Source: a virus | Taxonomy: Duplodnaviria; Caudoviricetes | DNA length: 63,210 nucleotides | IMG/VR virus record: IMGVR_UViG_3300037502_001755 | Coordinates: 1 to 63,210 of that record | Reading direction: 5' to 3' (one strand) | Shown: positions 2,950 to 15,492 of the stretch, one piece after another | Numbering within the stretch: the stretch's first letter is position 1 | Layout of the letters: the number at the start of each line of letters is the position of its first letter | Translations under genes and position numbers: made by a program | The notes under the pieces: generated by a model | Database searches by the model: none | Told to the model about the DNA's origin: nothing | What the model saw: only the letters and a program-made list of their open reading frames with translations

Positions 2950-3100
2950 GTCCGTCGCGGATACAAGGCACCGCCTTGATACGGAGCCGCTGCCCTACCG
3001 CAGCGCGTAGCCCAAGCTCCCGGGCTTTCTCCGTATCAAGTGCGGGCACGAAGAACCCGTCACCCGGCTTCAGGCTTGACCAAGGATAGTTGATCTGCAT
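2906..3100 (-). CDS. Small hypothetical protein (64 aa)
   Basis: YPWSSLKPGDGFFVP motif typical of small phage proteins; overlaps the 3' ends of both the primase and the giant gene. Confidence 0.65.
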   Translation of the reverse strand: MQINYPWSSLKPGDGFFVPALDTEKARELGLRAAVGQRLRIKAVPCIRDGLIGVWFYLPLRGRF

Positions 3101-6014
3101 CAATCTCGTCCGTGCGTCGGCTGATGTGCATGACGTTCACACGCATGGCAGGGCCGTTGGTCTTGGCCAGCATGTCTTTCTTGATGTACGCCACTCGGAA
3201 CTGTTTCTCAAGCTGGGTCTTGAAGTCCGCGTAGCCGAAGCTCATGGACACGCAGTGCTGCTTGAGTAGCTGCTCCTCGATGAAGTACTCGGTGTACCCG
3301 TCTTGCAGGGTGTTGTGCTCGATGCGCCCCAGCACCTTGGTGCGTGTGAGCGACCTGTCCACGGTGTTGCCCCCGTCTCCCCACTTTGTCAGCAGTCTGT
3401 TGCCCGGGCCGTCAGCCTTCCACAGCACGACGAAGCCGCCGTAGTTGTCACGGGTGTAGGCGTTGAGCACATCTTCTGCCGTACGCACGCTGCGCCGCAG
3501 AACCCCACGAGCACGAGCGACAAGCTCCTCCAGCGCCCCTATGATGCCCTTGATCGGCACAGTCAGGATGTCTGCGTACTGCGGGCCTAGCAAGACAGCG
3601 GCAGTCACGACCTCGGTGCAGCCCGTGTGCCAGTAGCGCTCGTCGTCGGTGAACTCCATCTTGACCTTCAAGTGCTCATGCACGCGGCGCATCATGTCGG
3701 CGGCGGCATCTTGGTTGCGCACCAGCCACCGTATCCACGCCTCGCCAGCCACGCCGTAGTTGTTCTTGATGGACTTGAGGATGACGCGCTCCTCGTCGCT
3801 CCACTGCAAGGGTTTGCTCGGCGTCCACTCCAGCGTGCGCAGCAGTTCGCCGTTGGACGAGTGCTTGCGGGCACCGGACATGTAGTCCGTAAGGTGTACG
3901 TTCGAGGTCAGCGTACAGGTGGCATTCCAGATCGTGTTGTTGATCCGCTCCTTGTTCGCCCCCGACTCCATGCGCTCCTTGCCTTGGCCCTCGGTAAAGT
4001 CAAAGATGAACGCGGGTGCCCACTCCATGTTGTCCCGCGCCTTGGCCGTGATCTCGTCGATCAGCAGCGGCATCGAGTTGAGCAAGCCCGCTCTTTGCTG
4101 CATTGCAACAGGAGAAGTTGACTTACCCGTGCGGTAGCGGATGGGGTGCCCCCACACGCCCGCCTTGGCCGACAGCGTGAGCGACTTGCCCGTGCCCGAC
4201 TCGGTAGAGCCGATGTGCCAGACGAACCCCTCGTACTCGGTGAACTTCATCAGCGCGCAGCCGAAGCTGTCAAGGCAGAGAGCCAACATCGTGTACATCT
4301 TTCGATGTACCATCAACTCCCAGAAGTGCCGCCAACCCTCCAGCGTGCCCTTGCTCTCGGTGTTCTTGTTGATGTTCTCCAACCCGGGCATCGGCACCGC
4401 AATCTCCCGACCGTCCTTGGTGAAAACCCTATAGTTGTAGACGAAGCTGCCATCCTTCTGCCAGCCGCACTGCAACGGCACATCAATCGCTTTGCGGGTG
4501 AGAGACGCCTCCTCCACGCAAGCCCGCACGTAGTTGAACAGGTTGTTGTCGCTGCCCTTGCCGAAGCTGGCAATCACGTTCTGGCTGGCGAGGAACTTGA
4601 CTGTCTCCTCCCGAGACACCACGCACTTGCTGGGCATGATGATATTTTTCAGGCCATCGGGACGGGTGGCTACGAGGTGTACGCCGTAGTCTTCTTCCTG
4701 CCTGAGCATATCCACCACAAACAGGTCGAAGGCCAGAATCTGAACCGTCTTTTTCGACTTGGTGCCGTCGTCGCCCTCGATCTCCCGCTCCATGTACACG
4801 CCGCCGTTCTGGCCATAGGAGAAGCCGCGAGGCGGGGTTGGGCGCTTGACGACCTGCCGTGGGATTTCTTCGTCGGACAGGTCCGGCTCGTCCGCGTAGC
4901 CAAACTCAGCCTCCTCGTCCCGGTCAGCCATCTCGGTGGGGTTCAGGGAAATGAGTTTCTCAGAAGTGTCGAGCTTGACCTCGCGCCCCAGCGCCAGCGG
5001 GTTGGTGATTTTGCCGAAGTGCGGGCAGCCCGCACACACGCCCGGGTTCTCGCTGTCCATCTTCAGGCACGGGTATGGGCCTTTGATCTGCGCCAGCTTC
5101 TCGTGCATGCGCTGCTCGGGGTACGGATGCAGGGCGCTGACCCACTTTGACCAGTCGTCGCCGTCCTCGCACACCTTCGTCCACGACAGCAGCCCGCGCC
5201 AGATCGGCTCCAGCCCGTCTTCCTGCGGCTGGTCGATGTAAGCCTTAAGTTGTGCACAGCCAGTACCGGCCATGGTCTGGTCGTAGATGTTCTCGAACAG
5301 CGTCACGCTGTTTTGCAGCAGCTTGACCTGCGTGGCCCCGGGCTTGCGGCTGGGGCGTTGGCCTTGGAGCGGTGCTTCGACCTTGGCGTGGAACTCGGGT
5401 TTGAGCTTGCCGCTGATCAGCGCCTCGAAGGCCGCGAACTCGAACGTGTCGCCCGCACCAAGGAACTTCACGTCCCGTGGCGTGCCGTACTTCTTCTTGT
5501 GGTTGCGGGTGCCCGGCACACGCAGAACTCGCGATACGTCTGCCGTCACGTTCATGTCGATGCGCAGGCCCTCCTGCTTGCACAGACGCTTGAAGTTCTC
5601 AGCAACAGGTTTCCAAGTGGCAACCGGAAGCGTATCCGTCAGCGGCCAGTAGACGTGCAGTCCCCCGCCCGAGCCAACGAACCACGGCTTGCCGAGCGTA
5701 TCCATCTCGGTCTTCTCCATGAACTGCGCCAGCGCAGCGGCTGCCTCCTTCTTGGAGGCGTACCCATCCATGTCGATGAACATGGCCTTGATGAACCGCG
5801 CGTTCACGGCTTCGCGGCTATCGACCTCCGCAAAGGTGGACAGGGCAAAGTAGATGTCACGGTCTTTGCCGTTCCATGCGTCGATGACGGGGATCAGGTT
5901 CTCAAGTTTCTCCTCATAGCGGTGCTCCTTTTTGTTTGTACTTAGTTCCGCCGCGCAGTAGTACCCGTGATCCGGGGATGGCAGAACCGCCGCTAAGAAA
6001 TCCAGCGGGTTCAT
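3060..6014 (-). CDS. Primase-helicase (AEP/RepB-like primase + Cys cluster + DUF927/P-loop helicase), 984 aa
   Basis: FIDMD, SGGGLHVYW, SRVLRVPGT primase motifs; C..YPC..CAGCPH; GSTESGTGKS Walker A; LLIDE Walker B; SD GAGGA before ATG 6014. Confidence 0.85.
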   Translation of the reverse strand: MNPLDFLAAVLPSPDHGYYCAAELSTNKKEHRYEEKLENLIPVIDAWNGKDRDIYFALSTFAEVDSREAVNARFIKAMFIDMDGYASKKEAAAALAQFMEKTEMDTLGKPWFVGSGGGLHVYWPLTDTLPVATWKPVAENFKRLCKQEGLRIDMNVTADVSRVLRVPGTRNHKKKYGTPRDVKFLGAGDTFEFAAFEALISGKLKPEFHAKVEAPLQGQRPSRKPGATQVKLLQNSVTLFENIYDQTMAGTGCAQLKAYIDQPQEDGLEPIWRGLLSWTKVCEDGDDWSKWVSALHPYPEQRMHEKLAQIKGPYPCLKMDSENPGVCAGCPHFGKITNPLALGREVKLDTSEKLISLNPTEMADRDEEAEFGYADEPDLSDEEIPRQVVKRPTPPRGFSYGQNGGVYMEREIEGDDGTKSKKTVQILAFDLFVVDMLRQEEDYGVHLVATRPDGLKNIIMPSKCVVSREETVKFLASQNVIASFGKGSDNNLFNYVRACVEEASLTRKAIDVPLQCGWQKDGSFVYNYRVFTKDGREIAVPMPGLENINKNTESKGTLEGWRHFWELMVHRKMYTMLALCLDSFGCALMKFTEYEGFVWHIGSTESGTGKSLTLSAKAGVWGHPIRYRTGKSTSPVAMQQRAGLLNSMPLLIDEITAKARDNMEWAPAFIFDFTEGQGKERMESGANKERINNTIWNATCTLTSNVHLTDYMSGARKHSSNGELLRTLEWTPSKPLQWSDEERVILKSIKNNYGVAGEAWIRWLVRNQDAAADMMRRVHEHLKVKMEFTDDERYWHTGCTEVVTAAVLLGPQYADILTVPIKGIIGALEELVARARGVLRRSVRTAEDVLNAYTRDNYGGFVVLWKADGPGNRLLTKWGDGGNTVDRSLTRTKVLGRIEHNTLQDGYTEYFIEEQLLKQHCVSMSFGYADFKTQLEKQFRVAYIKKDMLAKTNGPAMRVNVMHISRRTDEIDADQLSLVKPEAG

Positions 6015-6034
6015 TCGTTTCCTCGGGAGAAGGG

Positions 6035-6175
6035 TTATTTGTTGTCGTCGAGCAGATTTACGAAGCGTTCCACCAACTCCTTGATCCACTCCTCGGGCAC
6101 CTTGTCGAAGCCCATGATGTAGATGTAGCGCAGCAGCTCGTTGTCGCTTAGGTTGTGAGGTTGAATGCCTTGCAT
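6035..6175 (-). CDS. Hypothetical protein (46 aa, MQGIQPHNLSDNELLR...)
   Basis: Translated by hand; fills the gap between the HTH and primase genes; below the ORF-track cutoff. Confidence 0.6.
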   Translation of the reverse strand: MQGIQPHNLSDNELLRYIYIMGFDKVPEEWIKELVERFVNLLDDNK

Positions 6176-8055: not shown

Positions 8056-9618
8056 TCACAAATTTTTTACTTCGCTGTCGAACATGCCCACCAGCAGCGC
8101 GTGGTCGCTTACTTTGGTGCTCATCGCCTTGAAAAGTTTTTTCTCGATGGGGCTTGACTCGATGTGGTGAACTGTGACTTTGTCTGAGTCCTGCCCCTTG
8201 CGGTCAGCCCGGGCGATGCACTGGGTGTACATCTCCACCGACATGAGCGGGCCGTAGAACACCACTGTGTCAGCCGCTGTCAGCGTAATGCCGTGCGCCG
8301 TGGCCTGCGGCTGCATCACCAGCACGCGGATCGTCTCCGTGGTTTGGAAGTCGTGGATGATTTTGCCGCGCTTGGTGGCCGTCACATCCCCGTGGATCAC
8401 GTCCACGCCCACGCCTTGTTTTTGCAGGTGCGTCAGTATAGTGTCGATGGAGGAGCGGAACAGGGCGAAGATGATCACCTTGCGCGAAGTCTCCTCAAGG
8501 ATTTCGTCCAGCACGTTCAGGCGCGGCGCGGCATCGAACTCCACCACCTCCTTGTCGTCGGTGTAGGCGGCACCGCAAGAGATTTGCAGCAGCTTGTTTA
8601 CAGCAACTCCGGCATTCACTGCGCTGATCGTCTCGCCCGCTGCCCGCACCAGCATCTGTTCCTTGAGCATTTTGTAATACTTGCTCTGCTGCGCGGTCAT
8701 CGGCACCTCTCGCGTCACCGTCACAACGGGCGGTAGGTCAAGGCACTGCGTCTTGGTAAAGCGGATTGCTGGTTGCAGTGCAGCATAAACGGTAGCGGTA
8801 GCGTCGGTCTTGGGTGCCCACTTGAACATGCTGATCTTGTTCATCACCTTGTCGCGCCATGCCGTGAAGAACTTGGGCACGCCGCCGGGGTTGACCAGCT
8901 TGGCCAAGCCGTAGGCATCGACCGGGGACTGCGAGGCAGGGGTGCCCGTCATCATCCACAGGTACGTCTCGGGCTTGATGATGGAGGCCAGCGCCTTCCA
9001 GCGCCGGGTGCTCGGGTTCTTGTAGGCGTTGGCTTCATCCACGATCACGAGGTCAAACCGCCCGTCGTTGGCAATCTCCTGCGCAATCAGGTTCAGGCCG
9101 TCGTAGTTGGTGATGACAATCTCGTAGTCCTTCTGAATCATCTCGATGCGCCGAGCAGCTTGCGCATGGTGGGCCACGACGGCTGAGCGATGGATGATGC
9201 TCTGATTGATGTCTCCCATCCACGCGCTGTGCATGATGGACAGCGGGCACAGGATCAGCACCCGGCGCACATCACCGCGCTTCATCAGATAGTCGGCTGC
9301 CCACAGGGCCGAGAGCGTCTTGCCCGTGCCGGGGTCGTTGAAGCAGAACGCTCTGCGATACAGCGTGAGGAACGACGCGGTGTCGATCTGGTGCTGCATG
9401 GGCGTGAAGCGCCCGGGCCAGTCGTAGCGTTTGGTGATCGGAGAGGGGGCGTGCTTGACTCCGAGATTGCGCAGCACGCGCACTTCGTCCAGTCCCCAGT
9501 ACACCGCCACGTCGTATATCCCCGTGCTGACCTCCACGATCTTGTGCTTGGGGATGACTTTGTATTTGTGCGGGTTGCGCGTCCTTACGACAAGCGCTTT
9601 GTTTTCAATTATCTGCAA
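8056..9618 (-). CDS. SNF2/SF2 DNA helicase
   Basis: DPGTGKT, IVDEA, MTGTP, HGITLT, QCIARADRKGQ motifs. Confidence 0.9.
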   Translation of the reverse strand: MQIIENKALVVRTRNPHKYKVIPKHKIVEVSTGIYDVAVYWGLDEVRVLRNLGVKHAPSPITKRYDWPGRFTPMQHQIDTASFLTLYRRAFCFNDPGTGKTLSALWAADYLMKRGDVRRVLILCPLSIMHSAWMGDINQSIIHRSAVVAHHAQAARRIEMIQKDYEIVITNYDGLNLIAQEIANDGRFDLVIVDEANAYKNPSTRRWKALASIIKPETYLWMMTGTPASQSPVDAYGLAKLVNPGGVPKFFTAWRDKVMNKISMFKWAPKTDATATVYAALQPAIRFTKTQCLDLPPVVTVTREVPMTAQQSKYYKMLKEQMLVRAAGETISAVNAGVAVNKLLQISCGAAYTDDKEVVEFDAAPRLNVLDEILEETSRKVIIFALFRSSIDTILTHLQKQGVGVDVIHGDVTATKRGKIIHDFQTTETIRVLVMQPQATAHGITLTAADTVVFYGPLMSVEMYTQCIARADRKGQDSDKVTVHHIESSPIEKKLFKAMSTKVSDHALLVGMFDSEVKNL

Positions 9619-10548: not shown

Positions 10549-11214
10549 TTAATGTTTGGGGTTGAACTCGCAGCCAGTGACTTGGCACCAGTTGCATAGG
10601 GGGGTTTGTGTGGGGTTCCATACATCGTTCTCGAAGCACGCCTCAAGTCGAGCCGTGCGTTCACGGTAGCGCCACCAAGCTGCGTCCTTGGCCCCGCGCT
10701 CCATCTGCATCTTCACCATGTCGTTCTTCACGATGAACAGCAGCGCCGAGTTGACCTTGCGGATGTGGGGGAAGTGCTCGAAGACCATGAGCGACATGAG
10801 CACAAGCTGATCCCTGTCGGGGTACTTGTTGCTGCCAGTCTTCCAGTCGCCCACCCACGCCGTGAGGTTCTCGTCGTCAATGATCAGGATGTCCGCAATG
10901 CCCCGCACCCACACGTCGGGGGACTTCCACGCGGTGGGCTTGAGGTCGGCTGTCAGCGCCATCTCATACTCAGCCAGCTTGCGTCCGGACTTGCTTAGCA
11001 TGGCGTCGGCCACGTCCTTGAACTGCGCGTACTCCGGGGGAATCTCCTTGCCGTCTCGGATGTACAGTTCCAACGCCTCGTGCACCTGATTGCCATACCT
11101 TGTTGCCTGCGTTTCCTGAAACGGGTACTTCTTCAAGACCTTGACCTCGTGGTATCTGCGGGCGCAGCCCTCGAAGTCTTTGAGAGAGGAGTGAGACCAA
11201 GCGGGCTTTTTCAT
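10549..11214 (-). CDS. Cas4/RecB-like PD-(D/E)XK exonuclease
   Basis: WSHS..CAR, GNQVHEALE, GIAD, DWKTG, QL, C-terminal CNWC...C. Confidence 0.85.
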   Translation of the reverse strand: MKKPAWSHSSLKDFEGCARRYHEVKVLKKYPFQETQATRYGNQVHEALELYIRDGKEIPPEYAQFKDVADAMLSKSGRKLAEYEMALTADLKPTAWKSPDVWVRGIADILIIDDENLTAWVGDWKTGSNKYPDRDQLVLMSLMVFEHFPHIRKVNSALLFIVKNDMVKMQMERGAKDAAWWRYRERTARLEACFENDVWNPTQTPLCNWCQVTGCEFNPKH

Positions 11215-11704: not shown

Positions 11705-13675
11705 TTAGTTCTTGGCTAACCCATATCGGCGGTGTGCGCCACCGTCAGCGGCCAGAGGTATCCCCGGCATGTACTTCGGCTCCATGGTCATCTGCGCCAA
11801 GACCCAAGTCTTAGCGTCAGCGACCTCCTCATCGGGCACAACTGCAATCAACTCGTCATGCACTGTGCCCGCCACGGGGTACTTCTTAGCCACCCGCAGC
11901 ATCCCATCCGTCATCACGATCCGCGCTGCCCCCTGCACCACGTTGTTCGTGATCTTGCCCGGGTACAGCTTCGTCTCGTCCTGTCCGTACACCCACTGCA
12001 TCTGACCCGTGTCTTTGTCCTTGACCTGACGCAGATTCGGGTACAGCAAGCTCATGCCGTTGGGCAATACGATCTCCTCCTTTCGGAAGGTGAGACATTT
12101 ATACACGACCTCCTCGCCGCCGACAAGGCTGCGCGTGAGTAGCTGCCCCATCAACTCCCAGAAGGCAACCACTGGCCAAGCCGTTGATCGGTAGATGTCG
12201 ATGATCTTCTTGGCCGCCACGCAGTGTGTAAGAAGTTCTTCCTCAGTACAGATGTGCGGGATGTCCAGCATCTTCTGCACGTTCGCGTCGTCGCTTAGAA
12301 ACTTCTCTACGTACGCCCGGTTCACGCCCAGCTTCTTGGCGAACGCCATCTCGTAGCGCACCGGGGGAGCCCCGAGGAAGCCAACGAGTAGCTGCGCGGC
12401 AAAGCTGGCCCACCCAAGGCCATACCCACAGCCCAGCAGGGCCGACTTCGCGCTCTGGCGCAGGTCTGGGTGGCTGTCTTTGGTCAGCCCGGGGATGTTG
12501 AACATCTGCGCGCCGAAGGCTGCGTAGGGGTCGCCGCCTGACTTGAAGATCAACAGCATGTCCTCGTAGTCAGCCAGCCATGCCAGCACCCGGGGCTCGA
12601 TCTGGGATAAGTCGCCCACCACCAACTGGTGCCCCTCGGGGGCCATGATGGCCTTGCGCAGGAAGCTGCCGCGCTTGAGGTTTTGCATGTTGATGGCGCT
12701 GCCCTTGGCCGCCGCCCACCGCCCCGACTTGGCTCCGTAGTAGCTCAGGGGTACAGGCAGGGGGCCGCGCGTGGAGATGTCTAGGAAACGCTGCGCCCGC
12801 GTGCGCTCCGTCGTTGACTTAACTTTGAGTCGCGCTTCACAGAGCGCTGCAACTTCCTCATTCCCACCATTGAGGAGTGCTTGGAAGAGCGCATCGTTCT
12901 TGGCAAGCGCGAGCGTACGCTTACCAGTCGTCTTGCTAACCTTCGTAGGCGGCTCGACACCAAGCGCTTTGAGCGCTTCTGCAAAACGCGGGTTCGATGC
13001 CAGAACAGCTTCATCCAAGCCGAGCCTGTGTAATAGACCTTCACGTTTGGTTTTCTCCTCTTCAAGTGCTTTCTCTAACATCTGCGAGTCCAACACCAGC
13101 AGCGGGTTGGTGTACATCTTGAGCGTCATGTCAATAAGACGTAGCTCTTTCGCGGGGTAACCATCGCCCAGTCGTGTGAAAATCTCCTCGCACAGATACA
13201 CATCATGTTTGCAGTATTCAGCGAGTTCTTGTTCGATATCTGGAGTAAGTTCGCTAAGCCCGTCAGTCGAGTGAACGGCTTTCCCTTTTGGCGGTAGTGC
13301 GAAGTCTTCGGAAAGCTTTGCAAGGGAATTGCCAACTTCCACACCGCGTAAAGCTCTCGCCATTGATAGGGTGTCGAAGATGAAGGCTGGGCGTACGCCG
13401 TACCGCCATCCCAGTATGGAGATATCGAATTGGGAGTTATGCGCAAGGACGGCGGTTCGTCCCCAGTCGATTCCAGAAAGGAACTGAGGTAGGTCTGCTC
13501 CTCCAACCCATTTAATTGGCTCGTCGCTTCCGTATACATGGAAGCAAGCTCCGAATGCCTTGAAGCGTTCATCACGGATGTACTCCTCGGTTGTCATCTT
13601 TGACAAGGTGTAGTCGCTGCGATCCCAGCGGGTCTCGAAATCCACAGTCAGAATGCGGTCGTAGGGGCGGCTCAA
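11705..13675 (-). CDS. polA: Family A DNA polymerase with 3'-5' exonuclease
   Basis: Exo motifs DFET, HNSQFD, YCKHD; polymerase motifs DLSQIEPR, RQSAKSALLGCGYG, VHDE. Confidence 0.95.
   Translation of the reverse strand: MSRPYDRILTVDFETRWDRSDYTLSKMTTEEYIRDERFKAFGACFHVYGSDEPIKWVGGADLPQFLSGIDWGRTAVLAHNSQFDISILGWRYGVRPAFIFDTLSMARALRGVEVGNSLAKLSEDFALPPKGKAVHSTDGLSELTPDIEQELAEYCKHDVYLCEEIFTRLGDGYPAKELRLIDMTLKMYTNPLLVLDSQMLEKALEEEKTKREGLLHRLGLDEAVLASNPRFAEALKALGVEPPTKVSKTTGKRTLALAKNDALFQALLNGGNEEVAALCEARLKVKSTTERTRAQRFLDISTRGPLPVPLSYYGAKSGRWAAAKGSAINMQNLKRGSFLRKAIMAPEGHQLVVGDLSQIEPRVLAWLADYEDMLLIFKSGGDPYAAFGAQMFNIPGLTKDSHPDLRQSAKSALLGCGYGLGWASFAAQLLVGFLGAPPVRYEMAFAKKLGVNRAYVEKFLSDDANVQKMLDIPHICTEEELLTHCVAAKKIIDIYRSTAWPVVAFWELMGQLLTRSLVGGEEVVYKCLTFRKEEIVLPNGMSLLYPNLRQVKDKDTGQMQWVYGQDETKLYPGKITNNVVQGAARIVMTDGMLRVAKKYPVAGTVHDELIAVVPDEEVADAKTWVLAQMTMEPKYMPGIPLAADGGAHRRYGLAKN
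13126..13575 (-). CDS. Candidate overprinted ORF in the +1 frame of polA (149 aa)
   Basis: SD GAGGAG 7 nt before GTG; polA codons switch to A/T-ending across this interval. Confidence 0.35.
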   Translation of the reverse strand: MMNASRHSELASMYTEATSQLNGLEEQTYLSSFLESTGDEPPSLRITPNSISPYWDGGTAYAQPSSSTPYQWRELYAVWKLAIPLQSFPKTSHYRQKGKPFTRLTGLANLLQISNKNSLNTANMMCICARRFSHDWAMVTPRKSYVLLT

Positions 13676-13959
13676 TTGAAGGCCCCGCTTTCAGGCGCGT
13701 CACGCATCAGCAGCGCGGTGTGTTTGGGCATGGCTTCGACGATCATTGCGTACGCCTCGAACTCGTCGGCGTTGATGTGGAACACCGCGCTTTGGGTGTC
13801 GTCGGACAGCAGCAGGATGCCCTTGGCCTTGGCATCACGTCGGTACAGCTTGGACAGCACGGGCAGCAGGCGGGCGAAGCTCTCTTGTGCGTCGTCATCC
13901 ATGTGCGCTACGTCCTCGGTCAGGTCGGCCAGACATCGGGCCACAGTTTGTTTATTCAT
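13672..13959 (-). CDS. Hypothetical protein
   Basis: 95-aa ORF coupled to VRR-NUC and polA. Confidence 0.7.
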   Translation of the reverse strand: MNKQTVARCLADLTEDVAHMDDDAQESFARLLPVLSKLYRRDAKAKGILLLSDDTQSAVFHINADEFEAYAMIVEAMPKHTALLMRDAPESGAFN

Positions 13960-14263
13960 ATCGCATCATCTCTTTCATCCCAGTGATGTGCTTGTCGAGT
14001 TCGTCGAGGTTGGTCTCGCGCACCACAATCGCGACACCTCCACTCTCAACAATGCGGGTGATGTGGTCTTCCTGCAAGGCGGTGGTCTTACCCGTACCCG
14101 CCTTGGCTTCGATGGCGAAGAAGACGCCGCCCACGCAGCACAAGAAGTCCGGCACTCCGCTGTTGCCGTACCCGGTGCCAATCGGCATGGCGTAGTACAC
14201 GCCGTGCTTTTCGAGGATTGCACGTATTTTTTTCTTGACTAGCGCTTCTGGCGTAGAGGCCAT
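13952..14263 (-). CDS. VRR-NUC endonuclease / Holliday junction resolvase
   Basis: E..VKK, GVPDFL, AIEAKA, TALQ motifs; SD AAGGAG. Confidence 0.9.
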   Translation of the reverse strand: MASTPEALVKKKIRAILEKHGVYYAMPIGTGYGNSGVPDFLCCVGGVFFAIEAKAGTGKTTALQEDHITRIVESGGVAIVVRETNLDELDKHITGMKEMMRYE

Positions 14264-14287
14264 CTTCTTCTCCTTGTTGTTAAAGAT

Positions 14288-14443
14288 CGGGGGATGTGTA
14301 GATTCAGCGCCCCCGGCCGCTGTAATGGAGATAGACAGTGATGCTCACTTTTACAAGTTGCCGACACACCACCACCCACAAACGCACGTTTACATCTACA
14401 AGGCTTGCGTGCGTTAGACCAACCAAAATGTCGGCTTTGGTTG
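14288..14443 (-). ncRNA. Candidate triple-pseudoknot structured RNA upstream of the VRR-NUC/polA operon
   Basis: Three hairpins whose loops pair perfectly (7, 7 and 6 bp) with distal segments; strand inferred from flanking genes. Confidence 0.7.
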
Positions 14444-14447
14444 AAGC

Positions 14448-14627
14448 TTAGAACGGCGCGGCTGGCGCGTCGGTCTGTTTATTTGGTTGCGCTTGTTTGT
14501 TCAGGTGTGCCAACACTTTAGCGTCGGCGCGCATAAAAGGCCACCACTTTCGGCTTTGCAGCGCAGCAATCTCTGACGGCTGCGACTTAGTCCAGCGTGG
14601 TGAACTTGGGCGCTTGGGCGTACTCAT
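14448..14627 (-). CDS. Hypothetical protein (59 aa, MSTPKRPSSPRW...WWPF...AAPF)
   Basis: Translated by hand; ATGA overlap with upstream gene. Confidence 0.6.
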   Translation of the reverse strand: MSTPKRPSSPRWTKSQPSEIAALQSRKWWPFMRADAKVLAHLNKQAQPNKQTDAPAAPF

Positions 14628-14869
14628 AGTATCTGCCCCGCCCGCGTGAAGACTGTGAACTGCCTGACGCTGATGATGCGCTCGGACAGGGCCGCCACGT
14701 TACTGATGTCTTTGCCCTTCGCACGTTCGCGCTCGACCACCATCGTCTGGTTGTGCGACAGGGTAGCCGCTGCTTTCAAGTTAGGGTCGGTGGCGAAGAT
14801 TGACGGGCGCGGGTTGTCGCGCCAGTGGAAGGGGCTGTCCGGGGGGCACTTGCATGTGTACGTATTCAT
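14624..14869 (-). CDS. Hypothetical protein (81 aa)
   Basis: ATG overlaps upstream stop; CKCPPDSPFHW motif. Confidence 0.65.
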   Translation of the reverse strand: MNTYTCKCPPDSPFHWRDNPRPSIFATDPNLKAAATLSHNQTMVVERERAKGKDISNVAALSERIISVRQFTVFTRAGQIL

Positions 14870-15099
14870 TTCTTTTTCGTCTCCGGTTTGGGGCAGTGGG
14901 GAGGGGGCACGACGACACACCACACAGCAGCGAGGCGTCGGCCCGTCTTTTGCCATCTATCAATATACGCATCAGGGAACTTGTGCAGCATACGGTGAAC
15001 GTGCGTGTTGTCAGTGCCGACGGCCTCCGCGATTTGGGCGACAGTCATCCCGTCGCTGTTTCGCAATAGCTCTCGCACAATGTTTTGTCTATGTCCCAT
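14866..15099 (-). CDS. Winged-HTH protein (77 aa)
   Basis: GMTVAQIAEAVGTDNTHVHRML; C-terminal PPPHCPKP. Confidence 0.7.
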   Translation of the reverse strand: MGHRQNIVRELLRNSDGMTVAQIAEAVGTDNTHVHRMLHKFPDAYIDRWQKTGRRLAAVWCVVVPPPHCPKPETKKK

Positions 15100-15262
15100 A
15101 GCTCACAGCAAACCAAACGACAGCCCATGCGGCAGCAACAACAGACCAGAACTTGATATTGGGCCACAGGTCTTCAATCTCGGCGATCATCATGACAAAC
15201 GGAATCGTGATCAGCATCAGGACTGCGGTGGCTAACAGGAAGATGATGATGGCGAGGGTCAT
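15089..15262 (-). CDS. Small two-TM membrane protein (57 aa)
   Basis: Translated by hand: MTLAIIIFLLATAVLMLITIPF...VVAAAWAVVWFAV; SD GGGAG. Confidence 0.6.
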   Translation of the reverse strand: MTLAIIIFLLATAVLMLITIPFVMMIAEIEDLWPNIKFWSVVAAAWAVVWFAVSYGT

Positions 15263-15492
15263 TGAATTCTCCCCCGCATCGCCTCAATCTGCGCCCGTTG
15301 TTGATCCATCAGCGCATCACGTTGTTGGCATGCCTGCTCGTACATTGCGTAAAGCCGGTCAATACGATCTTGCGCCTCAAGTTTTGCCTCGCCGATCATG
15401 CCGATCAGGTGCTTGATCTCGTTGACTAGCGCCACGACAGTCTCTGGAGTAACCGGCACAATAGCACCGGGCATCAGCCATTCTTCTTTCAT
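15259..15492 (-). CDS. Hypothetical coiled-coil protein (77 aa)
   Basis: SD GAGGAGG, ATGA overlap. Confidence 0.65.
   Translation of the reverse strand: MKEEWLMPGAIVPVTPETVVALVNEIKHLIGMIGEAKLEAQDRIDRLYAMYEQACQQRDALMDQQRAQIEAMRGRIQ

What the first reader, a model, noticed from the sequence alone, without database searches (positions are those of the whole stretch)
14288..14443. Compact ~155-nt RNA with three loop-mediated pseudoknots ahead of the replication operon
All pairs below are Watson-Crick. Hairpin 14420-27/14436-43 has a loop (14429-35) that pairs with 14360-66. Hairpin 14381-88/14408-15 has a loop segment (14394-400) that pairs with 14297-303. Hairpin 14305-09/14318-22 has a loop (14310-15) that pairs with 14288-93, a classic H-type knot. 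A fourth hairpin sits at 14337-41/14345-49. That is 46 bp of interlocked helices, ending 12 nt before the VRR-NUC SD. I could not match it by eye to twister, pistol, HDV-like, preQ1 or SAM-II consensus. It could be a new ribozyme, riboswitch, nuclease-resistant RNA or translational operator.
Basis: partly seen in the sequence, partly recalled or inferred. Interest (0 to 1): 0.85.

Follow-up and report, generated by a model that had tools for sequence, protein, structure and literature searches.

The report
New triple-pseudoknot RNA in phage operons
A roughly 150-base RNA with three interlocked pseudoknots lies just before the DNA-replication genes of this phage, recurs in about a hundred related uncultured phages with matching base-pair changes, and fits no catalogued RNA family, so it looks like a new structured RNA class of unknown function.

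Summary
All seven pairings exist at the stated coordinates, on the minus (gene) strand. The arrangement is rare in shuffles (≥3 such knots in 1.0% of 2000).

Comparative data support it strongly. About 100 distinct copies occur in IMG/VR phage contigs. There is one copy per locus, and all 65 hits in gene-anchored loci lie on the gene strand.

Six helices covary:
- S1/S2, an H-type knot.
- T1, pairing the P2 hairpin loop with loop 3 of that knot.
- P1, P2 and P3.

The outer hairpin of knot 1 is seen only in close relatives.

No Rfam 15 family matches. GenBank phages give no match. All 119 matches examined (from 120 stretches returned) in cellular genomes look like chance.

The RNA sits inside an operon. 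It usually lies between a DUF3310 gene, whose stop codon abuts P1, and a small Hjc/VRR-NUC-like endonuclease gene that heads the PolA replication module.

Function is unproven. My best guess (0.45) is a cis-acting ligand- or protein-responsive leader. Ribozyme, antiterminator and trans-acting RNA remain open.

The parts
14448..14627 (-). Upstream 59-aa ORF. Its stop codon UAA is at 14448-14450, 4 nt before the first helix.
   Evidence: No Pfam or PHROG match. In relatives the upstream ORF is DUF3310 in 38 of 79 distinct cases, and its stop codon abuts or overlaps P1.
14420..14443 (-). P0 hairpin, CAACCAAA (14443-36) with UUUGGUUG (14427-20). It presents the P1 5' strand in its loop. Lineage-specific.
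   Evidence: Analogous hairpins were seen by eye only in L002, L008 and L192. It is not part of the family consensus.
14429..14435 (-). P1 5' strand, GCCGACA.
   Evidence: It pairs with 14360-66. In alignment A7, all 8 P1 pairs show two-sided changes and 90% of cells are paired, against 30-43% when slid. Native duplex energy is -17.2 against -10.5 kcal/mol for cross-lineage pairs.
14408..14415 (-). P2 5' strand, AACGCACG.
   Evidence: It pairs with 14381-88. All 10 P2 pairs show two-sided changes.
14389..14407 (-). P2 terminal loop, CAAGCCUUGUAGAUGUAAA. It holds a 2-bp mini-helix P2' (G14404-U14392, C14403-G14393) and the T1 5' strand UGUAGAU (14400-14394).
   Evidence: This is the most conserved stretch of the family, with consensus (C)AAGCCU-N-GUAGAU-G(C/U)GA. 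P2' is 92% paired.
14381..14388 (-). P2 3' strand, CGUGCGUU.
14367..14377 (-). P3 5' strand, GGGUGGUGGUG. It is rich in G-U pairs in this phage and its register is ambiguous because of the GGU repeats.
   Evidence: It pairs with 14333-43 in alignment A9. Family-wide, all 9 P3 pairs show two-sided changes and 96% of cells are paired, against 24-45% when slid.
14360..14366 (-). P1 3' strand, UGUCGGC. It lies in the loop of P3, so P1 and P3 cross and form a pseudoknot.
14333..14343 (-). P3 3' strand, CAUCACUGUCU.
14323..14332 (-). Pyrimidine-rich linker ('tail') containing UCUCC (14331-27), which resembles an anti-Shine-Dalgarno sequence.
   Evidence: CUCC or UUCC is present in 70 of 93 copies, and a pyrimidine run of 4 or more in 84 of 93. 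Its complementarity to the SD shows no covariation.
14318..14322 (-). S1 5' strand, CAGCG.
   Evidence: It pairs with 14305-09. All 5 pairs show two-sided changes and 97.7% of cells are paired. S1 was not part of the model used to make that alignment.
14305..14315 (-). S2 5' strand CGGGGG (14315-10), directly followed by S1 3' strand CGCUG (14309-05).
   Evidence: Model R1 scores 44.3 bits (E = 7e-9) here. This is the only hit in the genome; the next best has E = 0.38.
14297..14303 (-). T1 3' strand, AUCUACA, inside loop 3 of the S1/S2 knot. It pairs with the P2 loop at 14394-400.
   Evidence: A perfect 7-nt complement lies 55-86 nt upstream in 88 of 100 copies, and a 6-nt complement in 10 more. 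Shuffled controls average 4.7 nt. Three of the 7 pairs show two-sided changes.
14288..14293 (-). S2 3' strand, CCCCCG. This is the 3' end of the conserved RNA.
   Evidence: Four of the 7 S2 pairs show two-sided changes and 96% of cells are paired.
14264..14287 (-). G-poor spacer (14287-76), Shine-Dalgarno AAGGAG (14275-70) and the spacer to the start codon.
   Evidence: Family-wide, the 12 nt after S2 are 5.6% G. An SD-preceded start lies 16-68 nt after S2 in 78 of 93 copies.
13952..14263 (-). Downstream 103-aa PD-(D/E)XK endonuclease gene (Hjc/VRR-NUC-like). It is the first gene of the replication module.
   Evidence: phrog_93 'endonuclease', E = 6e-15. Pfam Hjc, E = 0.0014, which is below the cut-off. 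PolA 11705-13675, exonuclease 10549-11214, SNF2 helicase 8056-9618 and DUF927 3060-6089 follow on the same strand.

Best explanation
This is a member of a previously uncatalogued family of phage RNAs. Copies have a median length of about 145 nt (range 105-164). The RNA is transcribed on the gene strand as part of a long early/middle operon.

Shown: the fold has two linked domains.
- The 5' domain has helix P1 pairing the 5' end with the loop of hairpin P3, which makes a pseudoknot, with hairpin P2 between them.
- The 3' domain is an H-type pseudoknot, S1/S2.
- The domains are tied together by a 7-bp helix, T1, between the highly conserved P2 loop (AAGCCU-N-GUAGAU-GCGA) and loop 3 of the S1/S2 knot (AAUCUAC-N).

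Inferred: it acts in cis as a regulatory leader for the cistron that follows, most often the endonuclease that heads the PolA replication module. The folded core would be a docking site for a small ligand or a protein. Its folding state would set how accessible the ribosome-binding site 12-30 nt downstream is, possibly through the conserved CUCC tract just 5' of the knot. Ribosomes terminating on the upstream ORF, whose stop codon abuts P1, would transiently unfold the 5' domain and so couple the switch to upstream translation.

I put about 0.97 on the existence and architecture of the structured RNA. The 0.45 given here is for the cis-regulatory mechanism.
For: Structure:
- S1/S2: 96.9% of cells paired, 9 of 12 pairs with two-sided changes, 0 of 500 shuffles as high, and 51-64% paired when slid (88 distinct sequences).
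- On a plain MAFFT alignment of 96 distinct full-length copies: 88.1% paired against 75.7% shuffled, and 23 of 31 pairs with two-sided changes.
- T1: 88 of 100 copies have a perfect 7-nt complement.
- P1: 8 of 8 pairs covary.
- P3: 9 of 9 pairs covary.

Strand and copy number:
- 65 of 65 model hits in PolA- or nuclease-anchored loci lie on the gene strand.
- There is one hit per locus in 100 loci and one in this 98%-complete genome.
- G-U pairs outnumber A-C mismatches 168 to 68.

Cis-regulatory placement:
- An SD-preceded start lies 16-68 nt after S2 in 78 of 93 copies.
- The spacer after S2 is 5.6% G.
- The CUCC/UUCC tract is present in 70 of 93 copies.
- In a nested-only ensemble the SD pairs with that tract with mean probability 0.35. 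The SD is slightly less accessible than with shuffled upstream RNA: 0.305 against 0.361 unpaired, lower in 45 of 76, Wilcoxon p = 0.02.
- The upstream stop codon lies at or inside the parsed P1 5' strand: median -10 nt, IQR -13 to -2.5, n = 78.
- In relatives that lack the RNA, the DUF3310 gene runs straight into the nuclease start. So the RNA is an insertion inside one operon.
Against: - No ligand, protein partner or expression data exist.
- Tail-to-SD complementarity shows no covariation beyond composition: native -5.6 against cross-lineage -5.4 kcal/mol, p = 0.23.
- The SD-accessibility effect is small.
- The downstream gene is not constant. The nuclease family accounts for 57 of 86 distinct downstream ORFs. 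Others include PolA, a helicase, a PD-(D/E)XK nuclease, DUF2201 and proteins of 330-350 aa. That is unusual for a gene-specific switch.
- In one lineage (L088, L090, L097, L118, L122) the RNA is followed by a palindrome or terminator-like hairpin and a consensus sigma-70 promoter, with the nuclease start 7 nt after the -10 box. There it cannot act on that RBS.
- The T1 helix is more conserved in sequence than pairing alone requires (4 of 7 pairs never vary). This fits recognition by a partner but does not say which.
Confidence: 0.45

Rival explanations
1. The RNA is a self-cleaving or otherwise catalytic RNA. It would cut the polycistronic transcript at the boundary between early genes and the replication module, giving the two halves different stability or translation.
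For: - Nested and interlocked pseudoknots, with a few near-invariant unpaired or sequence-fixed nucleotides, are typical of small ribozymes (own knowledge).
- The element is portable. It occurs between different gene pairs of the same operon, for example DUF3310|nuclease, DUF2201|330-aa gene and upstream of DUF2201. It is absent from many relatives: hits in 27 of 80 PolA loci.
- It keeps its full form even where no RBS follows.
Against: - No known ribozyme model matches, even at E up to 10.
- It has more helices than the known small self-cleaving classes as I recall them.
- No cleavage-site signature could be recognised.
- There are no RNA-end data; no RNA run was available.
Confidence: 0.15
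2. The RNA is trans-acting or a ribonucleoprotein component, released from the operon transcript. It might act as a decoy or sponge for a host factor or defence protein, as a cofactor of a phage replication protein, or as a replication primer.
For: - There is a single copy per genome.
- Its position within the operon varies.
- In some lineages it sits at the 3' end of a transcription unit, before a promoter.
- Minimal forms keep only P2 plus the S1/S2/T1 core (L200, L260, by eye). This suggests a self-contained recognition module.
- The sequence-fixed T1 helix fits recognition by a partner.
Against: - No dedicated promoter or terminator flanks it. In the window the only promoter-like site in 13900-15300 lies at 15014-14987, and there are no minus-strand terminator-like sites.
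- Terminator-like sites occur within 150 nt downstream in 4 of 89 copies.
- It abuts coding sequence on both sides.
- No co-varying partner gene was identified.
Confidence: 0.2
3. The RNA is a processive antitermination or pausing element, like HK022 put or EAR. It would modify RNA polymerase so that it reads through terminators in the long replication operon.
For: - It is a single cis element near the head of an operon longer than 10 kb, on the gene strand.
- In L219 a strong intrinsic terminator, and in L088/L090/L118 a hairpin followed by a U-rich tract, follow the RNA directly.
Against: - Terminator-like sites occur within 150 nt downstream in only 4 of 89 copies. Two of those (L070, L073), by my reading, fall in the conserved coding stretch of the downstream nuclease gene. 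The next 150 nt have 2 of 89.
- There is no match to Rfam antiterminator RNAs.
- Known put RNAs are two simple stem-loops (own knowledge).
Confidence: 0.1
4. The element works at the DNA level, for example as an origin, a packaging site or protein-binding inverted repeats, or it is a chance arrangement.
For: - All reader pairings are Watson-Crick and therefore strand-symmetric.
- It lies next to replication genes.
- The nested MFE is not unusual.
Against: - Six helices, three of them crossing, covary over about 100 sequences. This is not expected for duplex-DNA protein sites.
- G-U pairs exceed A-C mismatches 168 to 68 on the gene strand.
- Orientation relative to genes is invariant, 65 of 65.
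- Shuffles rarely give the pattern.
Confidence: 0.03

Closest known systems
Phage T4 gene 32 mRNA translational operator (5' pseudoknot plus unstructured spacer and RBS, bound by gp32). Recalled from own knowledge; mentioned in a passage of PMC10690425.
   Same: - It is a phage mRNA element.
- An H-type pseudoknot sits a short, unstructured, G-poor stretch upstream of the RBS of a replication or recombination gene.
- It acts in cis.
   Different: - The knot here is only one domain of a roughly 145-nt RNA with five further helices.
- The downstream gene is an endonuclease or another gene, not an SSB.
- No autoregulatory protein is known.
- No T4-type model exists in Rfam to test against.
Pseudoknotted riboswitch aptamers (preQ1-II/III, SAM-II/V, ZTP, c-di-GMP-II; glmS ribozyme-switch).
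   Same: - Compact multi-pseudoknot folds with strongly conserved loop and junction nucleotides.
- Located just 5' of an RBS.
- Helices supported by covariation.
   Different: - No covariance-model match, even at E up to 10.
- The SD is not one of the pseudoknot strands.
- No ligand is known.
- The downstream gene is variable.
- It was found in phage contigs only.
Small self-cleaving ribozymes common in phage intergenic regions (HDV-like/theta, twister, hammerhead, pistol, hatchet).
   Same: - Interlocked pseudoknots.
- Portable intergenic elements in phage genomes, present in some relatives and absent in others.
   Different: - No match to any of their Rfam models.
- More helices than the known small self-cleaving classes as I recall them.
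- Cleavage is untested.
Processive antiterminator RNAs (HK022 put, EAR).
   Same: A cis-acting structured RNA, in single copy, early in a long phage or polysaccharide operon.
   Different: - The fold is different and there is no Rfam match.
- Terminators rarely follow it: 4 of 89.
Unnamed 'csRNA' candidates mined from IMG/VR intergenic regions (PMC10690425; passages read, supplements closed).
   Same: - Same data source (IMG/VR).
- Same kind of evidence (covariation in phage intergenic regions).
- Parts of this RNA, such as the P2 hairpin or the S1/S2 knot, could be among its 8495 models of 29-151 nt.
   Different: - The main text mentions no nuclease- or polymerase-associated motif; those terms occur 0 times.
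- Its method models nested structure of short regions.
- Whether it holds this RNA could not be checked.

Membership tests
Any Rfam 15 family (4227 models, including the DUF2800 and DUF2815 phage motifs, riboswitches and ribozymes) | Covariance-model score at or above the family's gathering score | tested here: not met
   There are 0 matches in the whole window. On 14200-14520 at E up to 10 there are only mir-87 (16 bits against 49), ceN108 (13 against 50) and RT-7 (9 against 117). In 15 related loci the only hit is an unrelated Betaproteobacteria-1 RNA elsewhere in L213.
T4 gene 32-type autoregulatory operator | H-type pseudoknot 5' of an unstructured spacer and the RBS | tested here: met
   The S1/S2 knot has covariation. 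The spacer is G-poor. The SD lies 12 nt after S2 in the window.
T4 gene 32-type autoregulatory operator | The regulated gene encodes the ssDNA-binding protein that binds the operator | tested here: not met
   The downstream gene is a PD-(D/E)XK endonuclease or other non-SSB genes.
Riboswitch | Conserved, covariation-supported aptamer-like fold in an mRNA leader | tested here: met
Riboswitch | Expression platform with alternative pairing that occludes the SD or forms a terminator | tested here: inconclusive
   The CUCC tract is complementary to the SD but shows no covariation. The SD is slightly less accessible than with shuffled upstream RNA, p = 0.02. Terminators follow in 4 of 89 copies.
Riboswitch | Specific ligand binding that changes the structure | not testable with these tools
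   This needs in-line probing or ITC with candidate ligands.
Self-cleaving ribozyme | Site-specific self-scission | not testable with these tools
   No RNA-end data are available (one search lists no RNA run). Known classes do not match.
Processive antiterminator RNA (put/EAR-like) | Lies upstream of terminators that must be read through | tested here: inconclusive
   Terminator-like sites within 150 nt occur in 4 of 89 copies. L219 is the clear case by eye, two others (L070, L073) fall by my reading inside the nuclease coding sequence, and more distant terminators were not surveyed.
Intrinsic terminator | GC-rich hairpin followed by a U-tract on the transcribed strand | tested here: not met
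   There is no minus-strand terminator-like site in 13900-15300. S2 is followed by AUCUUUAACAAC.
tRNA, tmRNA or tRNA-like gene | Recognised by ARAGORN | tested here: not met
   ARAGORN finds 0 genes in the window.
   The only Pfam hit is Hjc, E = 0.0014, 18.9 bits, below the 21.1 cut-off. The PHROG hits are 'endonuclease' and 'Holliday junction resolvase'. My reading is that it belongs to the same PD-(D/E)XK superfamily (own knowledge, not tested here).

The most novel reading that the evidence does not exclude
This is a new class of riboswitch or ribozyme, found so far only in uncultured phages. In this reading the sequence-fixed P2-loop/loop-3 helix and the two pseudoknot domains form a binding or catalytic pocket. 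That pocket would sense an unknown signal or cut the transcript, and so gate the phage's replication and recombination module. The decision would be coupled to ribosomes terminating on the upstream gene, whose stop codon lies at helix P1.
Probability: 0.35. Interest if true: 0.9.

Novelty: categorically new. Interest (0 to 1): 0.82.

Why it matters
Structured RNAs this complex, with six covarying helices and three crossing interactions in about 145 nt, have often turned out to be riboswitches, ribozymes or RNP cores. Few have been described from phages.

This one marks the entry to the DNA-replication module in a large group of uncultured phages, and it appears to be absent from cellular genomes and cultured phages. 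If it senses a ligand or a protein, it would reveal how these phages time replication. If it is catalytic, it would be a new ribozyme class.

In either case it is a well-defined target that can be tested directly. The sequences, helices and compensatory mutants are already specified. It also gives a marker for an otherwise unannotated phage lineage.

Tried and rejected
- **Nested MFE folding.** The z-scores were not significant. I rejected this as a test because the structure is pseudoknotted.
- **Plain blastn of the intergenic region against relatives.** It found only the 3' 50 nt. This wrongly suggested that the 5' part was not conserved, and anchored and model-based searches overturned it.
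- **MAFFT alignments.** They mis-register P1, P3 and the outer part of P2. P1 and P3 were therefore counted on model-fitted alignments, which lean towards the fitted structure. The slid and shuffled controls, and the native against cross-lineage duplex energies, are the safeguard.
- **Tail-to-SD helix.** There is no covariation, so it is not claimed as a helix.
- **Tail-to-S2a alternative pairing.** It is compatible in 91-98% of cells but with only 2 pair types per pair in three of the four columns and 3 in the fourth. It is not claimed.
- **Terminator survey downstream.** Terminators are rare.
- **Small-protein reading.** A stop-free frame spans the RNA in 34 of 93 copies. By my rough estimate that is about what composition predicts, and one frame always carries the UAG of GUAGAU. 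Rejected.
- **Cellular genomes.** Of the 119 matches examined, 0 have the upstream T1 complement and 15 pass the loose S1/S2 filter, so I read them as chance matches.
- **Cultured phages.** There is no blastn match to the window region or to a consensus-like copy. Only a chance 19-mer appeared, at E = 6. The closest cultured PolA is 33% identical.
- **Expression.** No RNA holder is listed among public runs. Read laying was not used, because only DNA contigs were on offer.
- **Literature.** Searches found no description of this RNA. I read passages of PMC10690425 and PMC5737381. Their supplements, which list thousands of unnamed motifs, are closed and might contain parts of it.
Full report
**What is there**

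The window is a complete IMG/VR virus record of 63,210 nt, estimated 98% complete. Around the finding all genes run on the minus strand:
- a 59-aa ORF at 14448-14627;
- a 184-nt gap at 14264-14447;
- a 103-aa ORF at 13952-14263;
- a 95-aa ORF, PolA (11705-13675) and a PD-(D/E)XK exonuclease (10549-11214);
- further on, an SNF2 helicase and a DUF927 protein.

The 103-aa protein is an 'endonuclease' by PHROGs (phrog_93, E = 6e-15).

**Is it more than chance?**

In 2000 dinucleotide shuffles of the gap, three or more hairpin-loop/distal pairings arose in 1.0%. Two or more perfect hairpins of at least 8 bp arose in 0.2%. Nested MFE z-scores are unremarkable, as expected for a pseudoknotted fold.

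**Relatives**

PolA and nuclease queries fetched 141 related IMG/VR loci. blastn of the gap saw only its last 50 nt or so. In the regions upstream of the nuclease gene, that stretch appeared as a recurring motif with obvious compensatory changes.

Together these give 107 distinct 90-mers, of which 101 pass a simple S1/S2 test.

A covariance model of the knot (R1) behaves as follows:
- It hits the window once, at 14283-14326 on the minus strand, with 44 bits and E = 7e-9. The next best hit has E = 0.38.
- It hits 27 times in 80 PolA loci and 38 times in 61 nuclease loci, always on the gene strand.
- It hits once in each of 100 chosen loci.

**The H-type knot, S1/S2**

On the 88 distinct sequences of alignment A2:
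- 96.9% of cells pair.
- 9 of 12 pairs have two-sided changes.
- No shuffle out of 500 reaches the observed values.
- Slid partners pair in 51-64% of cells.

S1 was not in the model used to align, and all 5 of its pairs covary.

**The long-range helix T1**

The loop-3 heptamer AUCUAC-N has a perfect complement 55-86 nt upstream in 88 of 100 copies. It has a 6-mer complement in 10 more. Shuffled controls average 4.7 nt. The variable positions change together, for example UA 48, AU 28, GC 14 at one pair.

**The 5' domain**

Anchoring on T1 exposed the rest of the RNA. Hairpin P2 carries the T1 strand in a near-invariant loop. Helix P3 starts right after P2. Helix P1 pairs the 5' end with the P3 loop.

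- P2: on a plain MAFFT alignment of 96 distinct full-length copies, all 10 pairs show two-sided changes. Overall 88.1% of cells pair, against 75.7% shuffled.
- P1: a P1+P2 model (R2) found 56 of 100 loci, including the window. All 8 pairs show two-sided changes, with 90% of cells paired against 30-43% when slid.
- P3: a P2+P3 model (R3) found 84 of 100. All 9 pairs show two-sided changes, with 96% paired against 24-45% when slid.

The last two alignments are fitted to the helices they test. As an independent check, I compared native duplex energies with cross-lineage pairings:

| Helix | Native (kcal/mol) | Cross-lineage (kcal/mol) |
|---|---|---|
| P2 | -12.3 | -4.2 |
| P3 | -15.4 | -7.5 |
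| P1 | -17.2 | -10.5 |

Cross pairs reach the native value in 3.7%, 2.7% and 15.6% of trials respectively.

The hairpin that presents it in the window, 14420-27/14436-43, recurs only in close relatives (by eye).

Some copies appear to lack P1: their P1 energies are near the cross-lineage value. L200 and L260 look by eye to keep only P2 plus the S1/S2/T1 core. That points to this core as the essential part.

**Strand and nature**

G-U pairs outnumber A-C mismatches 168 to 68 on the gene strand. Orientation relative to the genes never varies. A stop-free frame spans the RNA in 34 of 93 copies, which by my rough estimate is about what composition predicts. ARAGORN finds no tRNA or tmRNA gene in the window.

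**Context**

- Upstream ORF: DUF3310 in 38 of 79 distinct cases. Others include an NrdR-like zinc ribbon (5) and DUF2201 (3).
- Upstream stop codon: it lies at or inside the parsed P1 5' strand (median -10 nt, n = 78). In the window it ends 4 nt before P0.
- Downstream ORF: the nuclease family in 57 of 86 distinct cases (at least 39% identity). Otherwise it is PolA, a helicase, a PD-(D/E)XK nuclease, DUF2201 or proteins of 330-350 aa.
- Downstream start: an SD-preceded start follows S2 by 16-68 nt in 78 of 93 copies, after a G-poor spacer.
- Relatives without the RNA: the DUF3310 gene runs directly into the nuclease start. So the RNA is an optional insertion inside one operon.
- One lineage: the RNA is followed by a palindrome or terminator-like hairpin and a consensus sigma-70 promoter placed for a leaderless nuclease mRNA.

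**Tests of mechanism**

- The conserved CUCC tract 5' of the knot is complementary to the SD, but it shows no covariation with it.
- In a nested ensemble the SD is slightly less accessible than with shuffled upstream RNA (0.305 against 0.361 unpaired, p = 0.02).
- Terminator-like sites follow within 150 nt in only 4 of 89 copies.
- No RNA sequencing run holds the region.

The function is therefore inferred, not shown. I favour a cis-acting, ligand- or protein-responsive leader (0.45). The rivals are a trans-acting or RNP RNA (0.2), a ribozyme (0.15), an antiterminator (0.1) and a DNA-level element or chance (0.03).

**Comparison with what is known**

- Rfam 15 gives nothing at gathering score in the window or in 15 related loci. 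The one exception is an unrelated Betaproteobacteria-1 RNA elsewhere in L213.
- A lax scan of the region gives only noise.
- GenBank phages hold no similar sequence. The nearest cultured PolA is 33% identical.
- The same pattern in 185,579 species' genomes returned 120 stretches. Of the 119 matches examined, none has the architecture.
- Four literature searches found no description.
- A 2023 catalogue of 8495 unnamed IMG/VR motifs of 29-151 nt (PMC10690425; passages read) may include fragments of it. Its supplements could not be opened.

The closest functional analogies are the T4 gene 32 operator, pseudoknotted riboswitches, small phage ribozymes and put/EAR antiterminators. It fails the testable membership criteria of each.

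**Verdict**

This is a widespread, single-copy RNA family with six helices and three pseudoknots, found in phage contigs only. It is new to the catalogues I could check, and its function is open.

Noticed in passing
L213:1043-1158 (+): A Betaproteobacteria-1 RNA (RF02932; 85.7 bits, E = 4.5e-14) sits about 7 kb upstream of the new RNA in this phage contig. It may hint at a betaproteobacterial host for part of the group.
   Followed up: no
L088, L090, L097, L098, L104, L118, L122: the 100 nt or so between the RNA and the nuclease gene: A consensus sigma-70 promoter (TTGACA, 17 nt, TATAAT or TATACT) is placed so that the nuclease ATG lies about 7 nt after the -10 box, which implies a leaderless mRNA. 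It is preceded by a palindrome, CCCTAACA/TGTTAGGG, that looks like an operator or terminator. Similar palindromes occur in L126, L127, L239 and L252.
   Followed up: partly
L124, L130-L136 and L142, just before the nuclease start: A conserved GGGCTATACCC(A)(T/A)ATGGG block surrounds the start codon in one nuclease subgroup. CCCATATGGG is a palindrome that includes the ATG. It may be a separate RBS hairpin or protein site.
   Followed up: no
Loci without the RNA (for example L017-L019, L022, L024, L031, L037): the junction of the DUF3310 and nuclease genes: The DUF3310 ORF runs into or overlaps the nuclease start codon, which suggests translational coupling. The RNA, where present, is inserted exactly at this junction.
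   Followed up: partly
L252: the 70 nt after the RNA: Three tandem CAACAACUCAA-type repeats, then a GUUAGGGAAUCCCUAAC hairpin, lie between the RNA and the SD of a 353-aa gene.
   Followed up: no
window:2912-2943 (+): The second-best R1 hit in the genome (12.8 bits, E = 0.38) shares CCUACCGCGAA...CACC with the knot but lacks the core. I read it as chance.
   Followed up: partly
window:18198-20322 (-): DUF2201 (VWA/metallopeptidase-like) and DUF3150 genes lie upstream in the same operon. In other phages (L163, L185, L186, L252, L259) the RNA sits next to DUF2201 genes instead of next to the nuclease.
   Followed up: partly
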